Translations under genes and position numbers: made by a program
The notes under the pieces: model-generated
Told to the model about the DNA's origin: nothing
The model's input: only the letters and a program-made list of their open reading frames with translations
The model's database searches: none
Shown: piece by piece, positions 27,858 to 46,950 of the stretch
Layout: every line of letters starts with the position of its first letter
Numbering within the stretch: position 1 is the first letter of the stretch
Source of the DNA: Trueperaceae bacterium
GTDB taxonomy: Bacteria; Deinococcota; Deinococci; Deinococcales; Trueperaceae
NCBI GenBank assembly: GCA_965215565.1
Contig: CBDCDZ010000004.1
Location: 3,584,001 to 3,648,000 of the forward strand
DNA length: 64,000 nucleotides
Direction: 5' to 3'

Positions 27858-27880
27858 GGAGGCTAGGGGCGTCGAGACTA

Positions 27881-27991
27881 AAGCGGTTATCATAAACATT
27901 GAGTTGAAATGGCGCAGATATCATCCCCTAAAGTGCGTGCTAAACAATGTTCTCTTTAGTGAGATTGGCTCAAACCAGATGCTACCTGCTA
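27881..27991 (+). mobile_element. MITE-like element family 1, copy E (111-bp core form)
   Basis: Colinear with copy B and the same length; ends caaaccagatgctacctgcta. Confidence 0.75.
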
Positions 27992-28168
27992 CATAAGAAA
28001 CCATGTTCCAGTATTACACAAGTCAAGCGTCCTGCTCTATTGTCAGCGCAATGACCGGGAGCCTGGTACTTTTTGGTAAGTACATTTATGTCTCATGTAG
28101 GACTACCGGTCAGCCAGTACATTTGCGTCTCGCGAGAGTTCTATGAAGATGGTTAAGATAAAAGGGTC

Positions 28169-28315
28169 ATGGATTCCTTTGCTGCTGCTACAACAGGTTT
28201 AATTTTAGGTTTATTTATCGGTATCTCTATCGGCTTCTTCGAGATTGCACCTTTCTTCGCTCTGGGCGGTGGGGTAGCAGGATTCACCTTCGTAAACAGA
28301 TTGAAGACACGTTGA
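28169..28315 (+). CDS. Possible 48-aa hydrophobic protein or pseudogene
   Basis: MDSFAAATTGLILGLFIGISIGFFEIAPFFALGGGVAGFTFVNRLKTR; TAAGAT upstream; the frame stays open past TGA to 28444. Confidence 0.35.
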   Translation: MDSFAAATTGLILGLFIGISIGFFEIAPFFALGGGVAGFTFVNRLKTR

Positions 28316-28440
28316 GAAGTTGGCGTTAGTCCGTTTGCCCTAGCCGCTTTTAGCGCCTATATCATCGCAAAAATTACGAGAGGTCAGCGGCCTCTCGTTT
28401 CATTTATAGTAGACCTCTTACAAAAGTACCGCTTTATCCA

Positions 28441-28499
28441 CTGAGCGCGTCCCTTCGCCTAGCGGGAGCGTATGCGACAGCGAGACCGCGCGACTTCAC
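28441..28499 (-). repeat. Dispersed repeat family 2 copy
   Basis: Reverse complement reads gaagtcgcgcgg...cgctcccgctag. Confidence 0.55.
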
Positions 28500-28652
28500 T
28501 TTGTGCACTACTCATGCCCGCAGGACTTACGCCAGACCGCGTGAACTGCTCGGCAAAAGCAAGAGCCGGGAAGAACACCCGCCGCCCACTTTCGCAAGTC
28601 TAGTTATGCAGCTAGAAACGTTATCTTTAGATAGTTGTTAAACTGATTGATT

Positions 28653-29771: not shown

Positions 29772-29855
29772 ATTCAGAAGCTGACAAAAGCGCATCCGAG
29801 AAGAGGTGCGCTTTTTTTGCACAACCTCTCATCTCTTTTTGAGATACAATGTGAT

Positions 29856-30143
29856 GTGCATGTCCTCAGCAAAAGAGCGCTTGTCGCTTTTTGGAAGAAA
29901 CATCCTAAGAGCGAAGCTCCGCTCGAGCGGTGGTACAAAGTTGTTAGCAAAACTGACTTCAAGACGTTCAGCGAGTTGCGCAAAGCATTTCCTAGCGTAG
30001 ATAAAGTAGGGGATTTGTTCGTCTTCAACATCGGCGGCAACAACTATCGGCTCATCGCGGCGATACATTTTGACCGAGGCAAACTTTTCATTCGTCACGT
30101 TTTGACGCACAGAGAGTACGATGAAGAAAGGTGGAAGACATGA
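29856..30143 (+). CDS. higB: HigB-family toxin
   Basis: MHVLSK, FPSVDKVG, VFNIGGNNYRLI, VLTHREYD; GTG 5 nt after TACAAT. Confidence 0.92.
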   Translation: MHVLSKRALVAFWKKHPKSEAPLERWYKVVSKTDFKTFSELRKAFPSVDKVGDLFVFNIGGNNYRLIAAIHFDRGKLFIRHVLTHREYDEERWKT

Positions 30144-30532
30144 GTATTGCAGAGCTAGAAACGCACTGGTCAGCCGTTCGACCTCTTCTCTCGGTTCACA
30201 CCGAAGAAGACTACGATAGAGCAGTTGTCTATCTCAATGAGCTTATTGATGAAGTCGGCATGGATGAGACTCACCCTCTTTACGACCTTTTAGACACACT
30301 TGGCACGGTTTTACACAGCTACGAAGAGGTGCACTACAAAATCCCTGATGTTTCTGGACGAGAGATGCTCCGGTATTTTATGGAAGAGCACGACCTTACT
30401 CAGTCCGATTTGCCTGAAGTCGGTTCTCAAGGCGTGGTATCTGAGCTATTAAGCGGCAAACGTGAACTCAATGCGCGGCACATGCGGGTGTTGGCTGAGC
30501 GGTTTGGTGTGTCGCCAGCGGTGTTTCTCTAA
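30140..30532 (+). CDS. higA: HigA-family antitoxin with C-terminal HTH
   Basis: EEDYDRA, YEE.HY, LTQSDLPEVGSQGVVSELLSGKRELN; ATGA overlap with higB. Confidence 0.92.
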   Translation: MSIAELETHWSAVRPLLSVHTEEDYDRAVVYLNELIDEVGMDETHPLYDLLDTLGTVLHSYEEVHYKIPDVSGREMLRYFMEEHDLTQSDLPEVGSQGVVSELLSGKRELNARHMRVLAERFGVSPAVFL

Positions 30533-30672: not shown

Positions 30673-31089
30673 GTGAGCACACCGTCACTCCTCCAACCAC
30701 GACAGGTTAAACAACTCGCTTCGCCTCATTCTGCTAAGCCTCCGCACCTGTATCACTTAGCACAGAGAGCCGAGAGGTTAGCCGTGCTCGTTGAAGAGGA
30801 TTGGGATTCGCTTTCGGATGAGATGAAGCATCTGCTGACATGTCTTGCTTATGATTCGCTCGAGCAGCCTCGCTTCTCGCTCAAGCACCTCTTCTTACGT
30901 CTGCGCTGGTCTTGGATGGTTGCGTTCGATGATGAAGAAGCATTGTTACAATACCGCGCGTCCTTCATGAGGTTGAGGAATGCCGTACTGGACACCATTG
31001 AAAGCGAGAATGAGGACTACCAGGCTGACTTAGCGGAAGCGTTGTCGTCTTTGAGCTTTGATCCTAACGCTGGTAGAAGAGTTAGATAG
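30673..31089 (+). CDS. Hypothetical helical protein (possible antitoxin)
   Basis: Strong AAGGAGGT RBS; acidic helical C-terminus; convergent with the RelE-like gene. Confidence 0.7.
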   Translation: MSTPSLLQPRQVKQLASPHSAKPPHLYHLAQRAERLAVLVEEDWDSLSDEMKHLLTCLAYDSLEQPRFSLKHLFLRLRWSWMVAFDDEEALLQYRASFMRLRNAVLDTIESENEDYQADLAEALSSLSFDPNAGRRVR

Positions 31090-31092
31090 TCG

Positions 31093-31524
31093 TTAGGTGA
31101 TAGAGCGTATTATCCGAGCAATTTCTGCGTCACTAGGTCTTTTTGGATACTCTGCATGAGTGTAAATCCAAAACGGCTGAACGACTTTGTGAGTTTCGCT
31201 GATAAGATACATAATTCTGCCAAGTCGAGCTGGTTTCTCTAATTCAGGAACCTGAAAGTAGAATTTCCAAAATTCCCAGTCAGTCTGCTGGATATTTGCG
31301 GGTAAAGGTTCGGGTTCTAACCTTTGGATGTCTCTGATGACTTCGCGTGCTCGAGGTGGATTTTCTTTGGGAGCATAGGCTAGGACGGTGTAAATGTTTT
31401 CCAACAGCTCATCAAATTTCTCTTTACCTTTAGCATTTTTTCTATAGTGAGTTTTGACGAGCCTCTCATACGTTCTGTCAAAGTGTGGTTGTATGTTGAC
31501 GCGGTAAGGAGGGTCACTGCTCAC
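31093..31524 (-). CDS. RelE/ParE-superfamily-like toxin
   Basis: YRV...HFDR.YERL N-terminus; FWKFYF...GRIMYLI...PFWIYTHAEY C-terminal strands; GAGGT RBS. Confidence 0.65.
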   Translation of the reverse strand: MSSDPPYRVNIQPHFDRTYERLVKTHYRKNAKGKEKFDELLENIYTVLAYAPKENPPRAREVIRDIQRLEPEPLPANIQQTDWEFWKFYFQVPELEKPARLGRIMYLISETHKVVQPFWIYTHAEYPKRPSDAEIARIIRSIT

Positions 31525-31567
31525 AACTATTTACCTCAAGGGAAAGAAAGGCGCTAAAATACCCGCC

Positions 31568-32425
31568 TTAGCAAAATTTACACTTGCCTAATTGGAGGTC
31601 ATCCGCAAGCCAACTATGAGTGGCAGTAGCTACCTCATTTGGGTTGGCTATATCAACTTCTTTGTATAGCCGCCCAACGAAATCAGTTGGGAGTTGCTCA
31701 ATCGTCTTGTCTTTCAAAAGAGCGCACCTACGACCCGTCATAAGCATTGCCCCAACTTCTATGATGAGGTTGTGATTGAGTCCTCTTTCTACGGTATCTT
31801 CGAAAATACCGATTCCATACTGGCAAGCCCATATGTGAGCAGCAACGTTGCCGTGTAAGTCGTCGTCAATCTGGCGGTCTGACGCCATGTGAAATACAAG
31901 ACCGTGTTGATCTACAACCTCTCGTATGGTGTCAACCGCGCCACGAACGGGGTCATTTGTTTTTGAAGGATATCGCGTCATACAAAAGACGTTATGCTCA
32001 AAGGGAAATTCTTGTAAAAATCTAGCGATGCCTGGTGTCCACTTCGCGGGGGCAAAAAACGGAGCTACAACAGAGTGAAGAGCTTGTCCAAATTCGCTAC
32101 CTGGTGAACCTATCAGTTCAACCTCGATAGCCCCAATATCTAATTCTTCCACAAGCTCCTCTGCGGTTTGTTTACCAAGAGGAGAAAGAGACCAGCCCTT
32201 ACTATTCTTCTGCTTCAGCGTGAGTTCTTCTTTAGCAAGTGCTTGAAGTTCGCGAGGAATATTTGCAGGTTGTGGGATATAAAGTGCTTCGAAGAGGCTA
32301 CCAAGTTCCGATGGGCTAAACCAGCCGGAGCTTTTTCGAAGCTCGAGAACCCGTCCAATCACAAGCACCTTGTCTCTCGCTCGAGGTAGCTGCTGAATCG
32401 CTAGGGCTATGTTTGTCCGGCTCAG
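31568..32425 (-). CDS. N-terminal winged helix + C-terminal TIR/NDT-like nucleotide-binding protein
   Basis: WSLSPLG wing; NVFCMTRY, CQYGIGIF, NHNLIIEVG, LPTDFVG..Y. ORF track start is 32368; the frame is open to a CTG at 32425. Confidence 0.7.
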   Translation of the reverse strand: MSRTNIALAIQQLPRARDKVLVIGRVLELRKSSGWFSPSELGSLFEALYIPQPANIPRELQALAKEELTLKQKNSKGWSLSPLGKQTAEELVEELDIGAIEVELIGSPGSEFGQALHSVVAPFFAPAKWTPGIARFLQEFPFEHNVFCMTRYPSKTNDPVRGAVDTIREVVDQHGLVFHMASDRQIDDDLHGNVAAHIWACQYGIGIFEDTVERGLNHNLIIEVGAMLMTGRRCALLKDKTIEQLPTDFVGRLYKEVDIANPNEVATATHSWLADDLQLGKCKFC

Positions 32426-33024
32426 GATTCTTCTCCCGAAGATAATCTTCTGACCAAGTCTTTAGCTTCTTCAAGAGCTGAGCGCGGAGCTTTAAGCTCT
32501 CTTTTTTGTCCTGAACCCTTGAAACGAAGAGAATTTATTGATGTAATCGCTTTGGAGAAATTTGGTGCGTCAAACGGTCCTAAATTGATACACGCTTCGC
32601 GGACTTCACTAATAGGTGTCCATTCCTCGAGATTAGAGTACTGGCGTGCCACAGTAACGAGTAAAGCAATCTCTTTCATTGCACCTGCTGTGGATTTATC
32701 AAGTTGCCGGGGGCTGATGATTAGTTCTAAATGCTCGCCGTCAAAGTCAAATACCTCTTTAACTTGCTCCAGGGAAACTTCCAAAGAATCGGCTAGCTGA
32801 GAGAGAGGTGTATCATTTCCACCCCGATTGGGTTGTGATTTGGAGGTAGAGAAAGCATTATTCTGTGTATCGTTGGTTGAGCTTATGCTTGCTCCTTGAT
32901 AAAGAATGTCTATAGTTTTTGTAAAGGCGACATCCCGCAAATCTTTCGGGATTTTCTCCTCTTCAATTAGCTCTCCAACCAGCGTAGAAGCTTCGATTAG
33001 CAGCTCCTTAATATTAGTATTCAT
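32422..33024 (-). CDS. Hypothetical protein with probable C-terminal winged helix
   Basis: N-terminal helical DLRDVAFTK block, linker, then W.PISEVREAC...D.PNFSKAI. Confidence 0.75.
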   Translation of the reverse strand: MNTNIKELLIEASTLVGELIEEEKIPKDLRDVAFTKTIDILYQGASISSTNDTQNNAFSTSKSQPNRGGNDTPLSQLADSLEVSLEQVKEVFDFDGEHLELIISPRQLDKSTAGAMKEIALLVTVARQYSNLEEWTPISEVREACINLGPFDAPNFSKAITSINSLRFKGSGQKRELKAPRSALEEAKDLVRRLSSGEES

Positions 33025-33415
33025 ATTTTTTGCTATCCCTTCGTAAATTAGAGTAGGCTTATTTCTTGCTTCCAGATAGGATTTTTAGGTTTTTAGAAGA
33101 TAAGAAGAGCGTAGTTACTAAAATTTATTATAATTTTTCATGCGCAATCTATTTCATCAGATTCTTTTCACTTCAAGCAATTTCAAGGAAAATACTTAGT
33201 TAAAGTTGAATAGAGGCGCAAAAGTCCTTGCATTTGACCATCTAATCTCAAATTCTCCGATATTTAAGTTGAAATCCTTCTGAGCTTGTTTACCTCCTAC
33301 ACACAATCGCTAAGAGCAAACCTAAATAATCCCTCAGAAGATATTAGCACTTCTACACATATTAATCAATACGCAGCTTGGCTCGTCAATCTTTACTAAT
33401 CTAAAATCGATACGA

Positions 33416-35095
33416 CTAATTAGCCCATTTTGGAAAAACGAGCTTGCTAGCTTGGACGTGTTTATCAGCAGGGTAGGCTACCAATTTTAATCTTCTCAGA
33501 TTTGCCAACGCTCGGCTAAACGCACTCGAGTCCTCCGAACGGTCAACGCGCTTCGCAAGTCCTCTGCGGCTTAGGGAGGAGGGATGCACTTCGATAAGCT
33601 CTTCTAAGAGCTGGCGTTCGTATGAGCGCAAGTAGGAGAACCAGCGTTCGTGCAAGTCTGCTAACGTTGCTGGTTTGCTAGGCGCGGGTATGCTGGCTCG
33701 TCCTTGCTCAGTGAGCGCGACTTGTCCCCCTGAAGGATAGACAACGAAACCGTCGCTATGCAGAGATGCGATGTGTCGACTGAACGCGCTCGATTTTGGG
33801 CTTTGCTCAGAGAGCACCGCGAGTGTAGAGCGGTCAAGGCTAGGAACATCTAAAAGTTCCATCTCTGCGAGAACATGCAAGATACGGCGTCGAGGATCGT
33901 CCGAGACTTGCTTAGCTACTGCTGAATTAGTTGGAACTGAAGCTATCCCTATTTGGTGTTTGCTCTGATGATCCGAAGTAGGCAAGCCTCGAGCAACTTC
34001 ACTGTCAGCTCTACCCAAGCGAGAGTCTTGTGAGATGTGAGCTGGTACAAGCTGCGCCGATTCCACGATAACGTTGTCTGCAAGTATTCGAATCTGCTCT
34101 AAAGTACTCTCTATATTCGTGGGGAGAGGTTTGACGGCTCTCTCCATCTCACGCTTCTCCGCCTTTTGTAGAGCGCGAGACTGGGCAGGGGCTCGAACTT
34201 TCTCATTGACCTCTTCCTCGGACGGCGCATCCTGATAACCGAGTCGGAGGTGCTCCAAAAGGTCGCCTAACTTTCTACTTGCGGGCGGTGTTGGGGGGGT
34301 AAGTTGCCCCGGCGCAGGGTGCGTACTTTTAGTGGCAACCGAACGAACTTTGACAACCTCTTGACTGAGCGCAGGACCGAAGGCGAAAAATTCTCCTGGC
34401 TCGAGGGTTTTCAGCTGCCGCCTTTCCTGCATGTTAAAACCAAGCTCCTCCGAAGCGCGTTTCATATCGTTGCCTAAAGTGGTGAGTCCGATAAGGCGAT
34501 TTGAACACATAGCGAGAAGGTTTTTGTTTAAGAGAGCTAGACGCTGAGTCGCCACAACAAGCCCGAAACCTCGTTTGCGACCACGCATCGCTAAGTCAGT
34601 CAGAGTATCAAGGGATGCACTGCCCGTATTAACTTGAGGCGCTAATGTCTGTGCCTCGTCAACGATAACGAGAACGTATCGCCAAGCATCTCGAGAAAGG
34701 CTCATGAGCCCGCGAATCACAGCCGCGCAGATGAAATCGCGCTCTTCGCCTCCAAATTCGCTCAAATCCAGTATGATACTGACGCCTTCAGCGATAAGGA
34801 GACGTGCGGTATTCTCTGCATTTTCTGGCGCGATATCTAAATCTCCGTCTCGCGCCTCGAGAATAATGTAATCATCGAAGACTTCGCGAAGTGTACGGAA
34901 CTCCCCTTCGGGGTCGATGATCAGGTGCTGTACATGTCCGTGAGTGCCCTCAATGAGCGTCCTAAGCAACCAAGACTTACCACTACCAGAGTTGCCTTGT
35001 ATTGCCAATCTGTGTGCTAAAAGACCCTCAAGATTTGCGACAACACCTTTCTTATCATTTGGGTCAAACGATAAAGTAGGTGTAGTGCCTTTCAT
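33416..35095 (-). CDS. HerA/DUF87-like P-loop ATPase with tandem C-terminal winged helices
   Basis: GNSGSGKS Walker A, IIDPEGEF, IVDEAQ Walker B, RGRKRG Arg finger, ATQR; two repeats S.S.AFSR..A.L...G.V.YP; GAGGTG RBS. Confidence 0.85.
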   Translation of the reverse strand: MKGTTPTLSFDPNDKKGVVANLEGLLAHRLAIQGNSGSGKSWLLRTLIEGTHGHVQHLIIDPEGEFRTLREVFDDYIILEARDGDLDIAPENAENTARLLIAEGVSIILDLSEFGGEERDFICAAVIRGLMSLSRDAWRYVLVIVDEAQTLAPQVNTGSASLDTLTDLAMRGRKRGFGLVVATQRLALLNKNLLAMCSNRLIGLTTLGNDMKRASEELGFNMQERRQLKTLEPGEFFAFGPALSQEVVKVRSVATKSTHPAPGQLTPPTPPASRKLGDLLEHLRLGYQDAPSEEEVNEKVRAPAQSRALQKAEKREMERAVKPLPTNIESTLEQIRILADNVIVESAQLVPAHISQDSRLGRADSEVARGLPTSDHQSKHQIGIASVPTNSAVAKQVSDDPRRRILHVLAEMELLDVPSLDRSTLAVLSEQSPKSSAFSRHIASLHSDGFVVYPSGGQVALTEQGRASIPAPSKPATLADLHERWFSYLRSYERQLLEELIEVHPSSLSRRGLAKRVDRSEDSSAFSRALANLRRLKLVAYPADKHVQASKLVFPKWAN

Positions 35096-35193
35096 GTGCT
35101 CACCTCAACTTATACAAGTCTAGCACGATATTTGGGCGATTTACAGTTCATGCATAACTCCAAACATCGTTTCTTTCAGAGAAACTATCCACA

Positions 35194-35231
35194 GAAAAAG
35201 ACCCCCACTCGAGCCTCGAGCAGGGGTCTCA
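35194..35231 (-). terminator. rpsA terminator
   Basis: aaaaagacccc...ggggtctc hairpin with a U-run on the minus strand. Confidence 0.7.
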
Positions 35232-35253
35232 ATATTAAACTAGTTACTAGAGC

Positions 35254-46437: not shown

Positions 46438-46659
46438 CTATCCCAACTCCGCCACATGTTCATCCTCATACCGCTCAATCAGCACCCCAATCACTTCCAT
46501 GAGCGACGCGAGCGGATGCGTTTCATCTTCACCAACCTCATCAATAAGTTGGTCAAGCATCCGAACAAGTTCGTCGTAATCCTCTTCGGTGTGAGGGACG
46601 ACAACCTTATCTGACAGAGGTAGCCAGGCATTGAGAGTTTCAGAAACACTTAGCTGCAC
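46438..46659 (-). CDS. Short HigA-like antitoxin without HTH
   Basis: HTEEDYD...LIDEVGEDETHPL matches the N-half of 30140-30532; stops before the HTH. Confidence 0.75.
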   Translation of the reverse strand: MQLSVSETLNAWLPLSDKVVVPHTEEDYDELVRMLDQLIDEVGEDETHPLASLMEVIGVLIERYEDEHVAELG

Positions 46660-46662
46660 CGT

Positions 46663-46950
46663 TTACTCCTTCCACGCCCCTCTATCATACTCCTCGTGCG
46701 TAAGAATGGCGCGAATATAAACCTTCTGGCGGTCGTAGTGAATAGCGGCGATGAGCCGCGCTTTGTTGCCACCGAGGTTGAAAACTGTGAGTTTGCCGAC
46801 TTGGTCGGCGGCAGAAAAATCACTGCGCAACTCGGCGAAGTTGCTGTAACGCTTACGTTTGACGAGCCTGTACCAGTGCGTTAGTGCGGCGTTGGCTTCG
46901 GGATGTTTGGCGGCATACTCGTTGAGGCGTTTTCTCGTGATGACGTGCAT
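46663..46950 (-). CDS. higB: HigB-family toxin (second copy)
   Basis: MHVITRK, ADQVG, VFNLGGNK.RLI, ILTHEEYD. Confidence 0.92.
   Translation of the reverse strand: MHVITRKRLNEYAAKHPEANAALTHWYRLVKRKRYSNFAELRSDFSAADQVGKLTVFNLGGNKARLIAAIHYDRQKVYIRAILTHEEYDRGAWKE

What the first reader, a model, noticed from the sequence alone, without database searches (positions are those of the whole stretch)
31093..35095. Candidate new anti-phage operon: HerA-wHTH ATPase, wHTH protein, wHTH-TIR/NDT-like effector and RelE-like toxin
Seen: four co-oriented minus-strand genes in a visibly AT-richer block between mnmA and the rpsA terminator, next to a HigBA pair. The ATPase has intact Walker A/B and Arg-finger motifs plus two C-terminal repeats. 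The third protein has a Rossmann-like C-terminus with N.NLIIEVG. Established: HerA ATPases (Sir2-HerA, DUF4297-HerA) and TIR/NDT-fold enzymes with a Glu in this position (Thoeris, CBASS Cap12, Pycsar, retron effectors) act in defence. Inference: three winged-helix-bearing proteins form a DNA-sensing complex that triggers NAD+/nucleotide cleavage or RelE toxicity. I do not recognise this combination as a named system. A 390-bp gap separates the ATPase from the other three, so its membership is less certain.
Basis: partly seen in the sequence, partly recalled or inferred. Interest (0 to 1): 0.85.

Follow-up and report, generated by a model that had tools for sequence, protein, structure and literature searches.

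The report
Winged-helix pair with swappable toxic enzyme
Two of the four genes form a widespread pair, a fast-changing winged-helix protein and a related winged-helix protein fused to an enzyme-like domain predicted to cut NAD+ or another nucleotide, which likely defends bacteria against viruses or plasmids, while the neighbouring ATPase and toxin-like gene are probably passengers of the same foreign DNA block.

Summary
The four minus-strand genes, the low G+C, the ATPase motifs and the TIR/NDT fold are confirmed. The four-gene system is not. The conserved unit is two genes: B (32422-33024; helical hairpin plus winged helix) and C (31568-32425; related winged helix plus TIR/NDT-fold domain, Glu204 invariant in 76 of 76). 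A small winged-helix gene precedes C in 61 of 68 homologous loci; the ATPase occurs in 1 of 68, the RelE-like gene in 0 of 68. The same small proteins precede HEPN-motif effectors in 14 of 20 other genomes inspected, or stand alone. This fits the 'poly-wHTH systems' predicted computationally in an October 2026 preprint, which already lists TIR as an effector; identity with its wHTH family could not be tested. All five genes travel together in one other genus, so an optional ATPase role remains open. Likely mechanism (inferred): co-assembly on invader DNA clusters the enzyme domain and triggers nucleotide depletion. No experimental test found in print.

The parts
32422..33024 (-). Gene B, core: 200-aa small winged-helix protein; N-terminal helical hairpin (3-45), disordered linker (48-68), small helix-helix-strand-strand module (73-101), C-terminal wHTH (103-199). 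Fast-evolving putative sensor.
31568..32425 (-). Gene C, core: wHTH fused to a TIR/NDT (TIR-DrHyd-SLOG class) Rossmannoid domain; predicted N-glycosidase effector. Start at CTG 32425 inferred (first GTG at 32368). Glu204 (266-aa numbering) at about 31757-31759.
33025..33415 (.). 391-bp AT-rich spacer (33% G+C), likely holding the promoter of B-C
   Evidence: not alignable to the 346-bp spacer of G071 while flanking genes align at 74%; no minus-strand sigma-70-like site or terminator was called in it, so the promoter is inferred.
33416..35095 (-). HerA/FtsK-superfamily ATPase (DUF87 core starting near residue 20, no N-terminal extra domain) with two C-terminal repeats, probably wHTH. Cassette passenger or optional component.
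   Evidence: weak ArsR-type HTH hit at 392-458, E 0.0023; HHalign to C's wHTH only 48%; 202 viral contigs encode relatives. Not folded.
31093..31524 (-). 143-aa putative RelE/ParE-like toxin (label recalled, not confirmed by any library); partner of the 138-aa ORF, here tail-to-tail with it
   Evidence: In 4 other family genomes its homologue follows a co-oriented, overlapping or abutting ORF that aligns loosely (19-25% identity) with the 138-aa ORF; absent from 68 of 68 C loci.
30673..31089 (+).
   Evidence: Conserved in G002 (87% nt, without the toxin gene beside it) and G071 (78% aa, same tail-to-tail layout).
31075..35247 (.). Exchangeable slot at the 3' end of rpsA: in same-genus G002 it holds an unrelated three-gene cassette with a HEPN-like gene
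   Evidence: Alignment to G002 ends at 31074 and resumes at 35248; HEPN Pfam E 0.0069, below cut-off.
29817..30532 (+). higBA toxin-antitoxin pair, neighbour, not part of the module
   Evidence: shared with G002 outside the exchanged slot.
35198..35230 (-). Terminator-like hairpin after rpsA, bounding the cassette
   Evidence: 15-pair stem with T-run.

Best explanation
Genes B and C form a conserved, often overlapping pair of related winged-helix proteins that is likely a poly-wHTH-type defence module, in which the fast-evolving B would bind invading DNA and the TIR/NDT-fold domain of C is predicted to cut NAD+ or another nucleotide once clustered, while the ATPase and the RelE-like gene are probably passengers of the same mobile cassette. 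Shown: the folds (predicted models), the kinship of the two wHTH domains, the gene pairing, the exchange of C for HEPN-motif proteins behind the same small genes, the patchy distribution and foreign composition. Inferred: B oligomerises through its N-terminal hairpin and coats phage or plasmid DNA; C joins through its own wHTH; crowding of C's domains completes the active site around Glu204, as is known for filament-forming TIR effectors (recalled); N-glycosidic cleavage drains NAD+ or a nucleotide pool and stops the infected cell. The substrate (NAD+ versus a nucleoside monophosphate) is open: TIR and NDT matches are tied.
For: Pairing: small wHTH gene nearest upstream on the same strand in 61 of 68 C loci (41 B family, 13+3+2+1 of four other families, 1 assigned by hand); of the 7 without, 3 are cut by contig ends, 2 match only the TIR part, 2 truly lack one. 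20 of the 61 junctions overlap by 4 or 1 nt. Reverse test: all 4 B hits among 401 genomes of one class are followed by C (one is the seed genome). One wHTH family: HHalign B vs C 90.7%, other small proteins vs C 96.8%. Effector exchange: of 20 further genomes inspected, 14 have a HEPN-motif protein behind the small genes, 1 a C-like TIR/NDT protein, 4 none evident, 1 unassigned; a B profile built only from C loci finds B orthologues at E<=5e-37 in 7 of the HEPN genomes, and the window's B matches 5 of 5 tested at E 1e-12 to 1e-23; the same swap in L272 and L225. Variable sensor, conserved effector: column conservation 0.71 in the enzyme domain vs 0.53 in C's wHTH; B 61% vs C 81% identical to G071, MnmA 75%. 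Mobile/defence context: C in 1 of 127 other family genomes; tRNA/tmRNA in 24 of 59 loci scanned vs 5.8 +/- 2.3 expected from the own genome's density; a tyrosine-integrase-like cluster in 14 of 68 loci (one member confirmed by Pfam); neighbours include Cap12 TIR, TIR_2, SRA-HNH, Mrr_cat, Eco57I, MmeI, Abi_alpha, PIN, MazF, HigB, Fic. [quoted passage not shown]
Against: No biochemical or phage data. DNA binding is inferred from fold alone; wHTH domains also mediate protein contacts. Most flanking genes of C loci are housekeeping or unassigned, so defence-island context is moderate; the tRNA control comes from a different genome and several loci are kin. The HEPN label rests on an invariant R-x2-R-x3-H (R-x6-H) or R-x4-H motif: Pfam gives no HEPN hit for 16 of 16 non-TIR effectors scanned, PDB only MarR-type wHTH, PADLOC one weak PD-T7-3 hit. 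The broad wHTH profile was seeded partly with two HEPN loci. No ParA Walker motif was found in any locus, so the tie to the preprint's founding ParA-Tox-RelA context is not shown. At least 8 of 68 C homologues appear frameshifted or split. C's enzyme domain also occurs without any wHTH gene on small enterobacterial plasmids. All five cassette genes are kept together in G071, which a pure passenger model explains only by shared history.
Confidence: 0.6

Rival explanations
1. B-C is a toxin-antitoxin or guard pair: B binds C and keeps it inactive; loss of B, or its capture by a phage protein, frees the enzyme. DNA binding serves autoregulation, and the module may act as an addiction module of integrated elements.
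For: Upstream small gene, downstream enzyme, stop/start overlap in 20 of 61 loci; location near integrases and tRNA genes; TA neighbours.
Against: One to three small wHTH genes per locus with several unrelated N-terminal extensions; the same B orthologues serve unrelated effectors; 4 of 20 loci have wHTH genes with no effector. A dedicated antitoxin would track its toxin.
Confidence: 0.2
2. C makes a diffusible signal (an ADPR isomer or a released base) for an effector encoded elsewhere, as Thoeris ThsB does, and is not itself the killer.
For: TIR/DrHyd domains include signal generators (PMC9503650 passages); structural matches include signalling TIRs; TIR genes lie nearby in L007 and L014.
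Against: No conserved receptor gene in the 68 loci: no cluster beyond the wHTH families and integrase recurs with a defence function; C occupies the slot that HEPN-motif proteins fill elsewhere.
Confidence: 0.1
3. One reading: ATPase, B, C and the RelE-like toxin are one four-part system, the ATPase loading or remodelling the wHTH complex on DNA and the toxin as second effector.
For: Same order and orientation in G071, another genus, at a different chromosomal site beside tRNA-Ser, with protein identities (61-81%) like MnmA's (75%). Identical longest-contig lengths suggest ATPase+C or ATPase+B on three more contigs (34,114; 788,675; 10,022; inferred, DNA not seen). In L060 (another phylum) a distant ATPase, 27% identical, lies upstream of a small wHTH gene and C in the same orientation.
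Against: ATPase in 1 of 68, RelE-like in 0 of 68 C loci. None of 80 viral ATPase loci (of 202) has B or C, apart from two weak hits at E about 0.005; 1 of 80 metagenome loci (of 453) has a B-like gene, convergent. ATPase G+C 51% vs 43-47%. The RelE-like gene follows a 138-aa-like partner in 4 of 4 more distant genomes.
Confidence: 0.08

Closest known systems
Poly-wHTH (PRA-wHTH) systems, Li, Burroughs and Aravind, bioRxiv 10.64898/2026.10.19.760177 (computational; seen: abstract, outline, section 16, passages incl. the section on poly-wHTH systems; figures and supplements not available)
   Same: Rapidly evolving wHTH genes, single, repeated or tandem in one chain, with several distinct N-terminal extensions, upstream of interchangeable effectors, most commonly HEPN, also TIR; some without effector. 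All of these traits were found for B's relatives.
   Different: Here the effector is a TIR/NDT-intermediate domain fused to its own wHTH of the same family; only one small wHTH gene; a HerA-like ATPase, not ParA, sits upstream. The text read mentions HerA 0 times. Sequence identity with PRA-wHTH not testable.
Cap12/Pycsar-type TIR effectors (PF10137) and nucleoside deoxyribosyltransferases / MilB / Rcl (PF05014)
   Different: C itself matches neither Pfam model; no STING, SAVED or cNMP sensor and no cyclase gene; a wHTH takes the sensor's place.
Retron Ec86-type NDT + winged-helix effectors (PMC7736814, search listing only; architecture recalled)
   Same: NDT-fold enzyme joined to a winged helix in a defence locus.
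   Different: No reverse transcriptase or ncRNA recurs in the 68 loci; domain order recalled as reversed.
Sir2-HerA / DUF4297-HerA and 'HerA/FtsK capture' systems (PMC10853773 and PMC12839542, passages)
   Same: HerA/FtsK ATPase near fast-evolving wHTH proteins and an effector.
   Different: Matches to defence HerA models cover only the ATPase core and score far below cut-off (NF042943 28.9 vs 800); no Sir2, Orc/Cdc6 ATPase or REase gene; the ATPase is not conserved with the module.
Thoeris ThsB
   Same: TIR-class fold.
   Different: No ThsA partner in the window; the only locus with ThsA/ThsB (L068) matches just the TIR part.

Membership tests
Poly-wHTH systems | Rapidly evolving wHTH protein encoded upstream of an effector | tested here: met
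   B wHTH model; 2,284 clusters at 50% identity; 61 of 68 loci.
Poly-wHTH systems | Multiple wHTH copies as separate genes or tandem domains in related loci | tested here: met
   Up to 3 small genes per locus; tandem wHTH in L036, L041, L046, L225, L274. The window has one small gene plus the wHTH in C.
Poly-wHTH systems | At least four distinct N-terminal extensions | tested here: met
   Helical hairpins of two kinds and strand-rich extensions of two kinds on one wHTH (read from alignments).
Poly-wHTH systems | Interchangeable effectors, mostly HEPN, also TIR; some loci without effector | tested here: met
   14 HEPN-motif, 1 TIR/NDT-like, 4 none, 1 unassigned of 20 genomes; HEPN by motif only.
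Poly-wHTH systems | wHTH homologous to PRA-wHTH / found before ParA-Tox-RelA | tested here: inconclusive
   No sequences or accessions in the text read; supplements closed; no ParA motif in the loci held, which are few and short.
TIR-DrHyd-SLOG class enzyme | Rossmannoid fold with conserved polar residues after strand 1 and in the loop/helix after strand 3 | tested here: met
   R132 after strand 1; N198, N200, E204 after strand 3, invariant in 76 of 76; definition from PMC9503650.
TIR-DrHyd-SLOG class enzyme | N-glycosidase / NADase activity | not testable with these tools
   Needs assay.
CBASS/Pycsar Cap12 TIR effector | Cyclic-nucleotide sensor domain and linked cyclase | tested here: not met
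   C holds only wHTH + enzyme domain; no cyclase cluster in the loci.
Sir2-HerA / DUF4297-HerA | Full-length defence HerA with obligatory adjacent Sir2 or nuclease partner | tested here: not met
   Scores far below NCBIfam cut-offs; no conserved partner in 80 viral loci, the commonest neighbour cluster being in 12 of 80.
RelE/ParE toxin superfamily | RelE fold or profile match | tested here: inconclusive
   No library match; weak HigB_toxin hit E 0.21 in 1 of 5 members; not folded.

The most novel reading that the evidence does not exclude
The phage-type HerA-wHTH-wHTH ATPase is an optional motor of poly-wHTH immunity, taking the place that ParA holds in the described systems: a captured viral DNA translocase that loads or strips the wHTH coat and so gates a DNA-triggered TIR/NDT enzyme. 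It recurs beside the module in two genera of the host family, probably three more contigs, an unrelated phylum (L060) and, convergently, beside a HEPN version (L225).
Probability: 0.15. Interest if true: 0.75.

Novelty: new member of a known kind. Interest (0 to 1): 0.45.

Why it matters
Poly-wHTH systems were predicted only in October 2026 and, in the searches run here, have no experimental test. This locus offers about the smallest testable version: two genes of 200 and about 285 aa in a nearly complete genome, with one invariant candidate catalytic residue and a natural effector swap (TIR/NDT versus HEPN motif) behind orthologous sensors. If right, it would show how a non-nuclease enzyme is switched on by winged-helix coating of foreign DNA, and would define a wHTH-fused TIR/NDT family (490 proteins found) that Pfam, NCBIfam and PADLOC do not model. 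It also corrects the annotation: the striking four-gene layout is a mosaic.

Full report
Observation. The four minus-strand ORFs, their coordinates, the flanks (mnmA, higBA, rpsA terminator) and the 391-bp gap are as described. The block has 46.5% G+C against 58.1% for the genome, and none of 1098 4-kb tiles of the chromosome is as low; within it the ATPase (51%) differs from B, C and the RelE-like gene (43-47%). The ATPase has intact Walker A, Walker B and arginine-rich motifs, invariant in 60 aligned homologues, and two C-terminal repeats. Two corrections: C probably begins at a CTG overlapping B's stop (32425; inferred), and a 138-aa plus-strand ORF at 30673-31089 meets the RelE-like gene tail to tail.

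What is conserved. Of 68 loci of C homologues in species-representative genomes (mostly Actinomycetota, also Verrucomicrobiota, Chloroflexota and others by record title), 61 have a small wHTH gene as nearest upstream member on the same strand, all ending within about 300 nt of the C ORF: 41 of B's family, 19 of four other families and one assigned by hand. Three of the other seven are cut by contig ends, two match only the enzyme domain, two lack such a gene. The other small families carry the same wHTH (96.8% to C's) behind different N-terminal extensions, and some have two wHTH in one chain. Twenty junctions overlap by 4 or 1 nt. In contrast the ATPase is in 1 of 68 loci and the RelE-like gene in none. 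B's family is large and divergent (2,284 clusters), and only 2 relatives were found by word-indexed search.

Effector exchange. A profile of the shared wHTH (56 domains) hit 36 of 381 and 16 of 381 genomes in two phylum samples. I inspected the ten best non-seed genomes of each (22 loci, 20 genomes; weaker hits were left out): 14 have behind the small genes a protein with a HEPN-type motif fused to a wHTH, one a C-like TIR/NDT protein, four no evident effector, one unassigned. The HEPN label rests on the motif; libraries did not confirm it. The profile included seeds from two HEPN loci, but a profile made only from B genes of C loci finds orthologues at E<=5e-37 in seven of these genomes, and the window's B matches five of five tested directly. 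L272 and L225 show the same swap, L274 a tandem wHTH with no effector seen.

The ATPase. Its family is large (1,517 hits) and common on viral contigs (202), where the 80 loci read show phage-type neighbours and no B or C; two weak hits at E about 0.005 include a Cap12-type TIR gene downstream in L150. Of 80 metagenome loci read (of 453), one has a B-like gene with a HEPN-motif partner, convergent to the ATPase; 70 and 37 of these two sets have at least 2.5 kb downstream. Within the host family it was found in 2 of 127 genomes. For linkage: G071 keeps all five genes in the same layout at another site, next to tRNA-Ser and a higA remnant, with identities close to MnmA's; equal contig lengths hint at three more cases (DNA not seen); L060 has a distant ATPase upstream of a small wHTH gene and C. 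Shared residence on mobile DNA explains these, but an optional role is not excluded.

The RelE-like gene. The label is recalled from sequence pattern and no library confirms it. Homologues occur in 5 of 127 family genomes; in the four distant ones it follows a co-oriented ORF loosely like the 138-aa ORF. It therefore has its own partner; in this lineage it lies flipped, at the end of the B-C unit.

The site. In same-genus G002 the DNA matches up to 31074 and again from 35248; between lies an unrelated three-gene cassette with a HEPN-like gene; G001 carries other accessory genes after rpsA; G004 has a single other ORF between rpsA and mnmA. The slot is a hotspot. Across C loci, 24 of 59 scanned (of 68) hold a tRNA or tmRNA against 5.8 +/- 2.3 expected (control from the own genome, loci partly kin), 14 of 68 an integrase-like gene, and restriction, TIR, Abi and toxin-antitoxin genes appear among the 236 flanking ORFs scanned, most of which are housekeeping or unassigned.

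Mechanism. Most likely (0.6) B oligomerises and coats invader DNA, C is recruited through its related wHTH, and clustering activates cleavage of NAD+ or another nucleotide at Glu204, arresting the cell. All of these steps are inferred. Rivals: B as antitoxin or guard (0.2), C as signal generator (0.1), a true four-gene system (0.08).

Comparison. The preprint 10.64898/2026.10.19.760177 (abstract, outline, section 16 and passages read) defines poly-wHTH systems by the traits found here and lists TIR among effectors. It is not CBASS/Pycsar, Thoeris, a retron or Sir2-HerA. 'HerA/FtsK capture' systems (PMC10853773, PMC12839542; passages) need Orc/Cdc6 and nuclease genes that are absent. Seven literature searches found no experimental study.

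Verdict. A real, widespread, experimentally untested two-gene module that works like, and probably belongs to, a recently predicted class; the four-gene operon is a mosaic. New member of a known kind; interest 0.45.

Noticed in passing
window 30673-31524; L167 7368-8219: A putative toxin and its putative antitoxin lie tail to tail, 3 nt apart, in two genera, whereas four other genomes have them head to tail; G002 keeps only the putative antitoxin. The toxin may now be read from the B-C promoter.
   Followed up: partly
L268 1597-2586 (NZ_OW967268.1), also L269, L270: C's enzyme domain (31% identity over residues 59-256) with an unrelated N-terminal domain is the main cargo of small Col-type plasmids in Citrobacter, Salmonella and Klebsiella (10 records); a candidate single-gene defence protein annotated as hypothetical.
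   Followed up: partly
L081 3376-5052 (G002): The same slot holds an unnamed three-gene cassette (229, 180, 147 aa), the last with a weak HEPN match, and an insertion-sequence-like ORF between higA and the 138-aa ORF.
   Followed up: partly
L084 3867-8520 (G001): Downstream of rpsA in G001 lie other accessory genes that look like restriction and toxin-antitoxin genes (labels recalled, not scanned), next to a housekeeping HerA gene.
   Followed up: no
L087-L166, L177-L256: The DUF87 + double-repeat ATPase is a large phage/prophage family without a described role in two searches; no conserved partner gene was found.
   Followed up: partly
L150 8503-9684: A Cap12/Pycsar-type TIR gene lies downstream of an ATPase-family gene on a viral contig.
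   Followed up: no
L047, L054-L058, L061-L064: Several C homologues are frameshifted or split at differing positions; decay or assembly error.
   Followed up: partly
L067 272-1387: C-like TIR domain fused to a low-molecular-weight phosphatase/arsenate-reductase domain.
   Followed up: no
window 46456-46950 (G000:C4:3630456-3630950): A second higB-higA-like pair, the higA part matching only its N-terminal half; a third pair lies elsewhere on the chromosome.
   Followed up: no
window 27858-28646: About 790 bp upstream of mnmA with no ORF of 50 aa or more called; part of it (28078-28311) is conserved at about 79% in both same-genus genomes.
   Followed up: no
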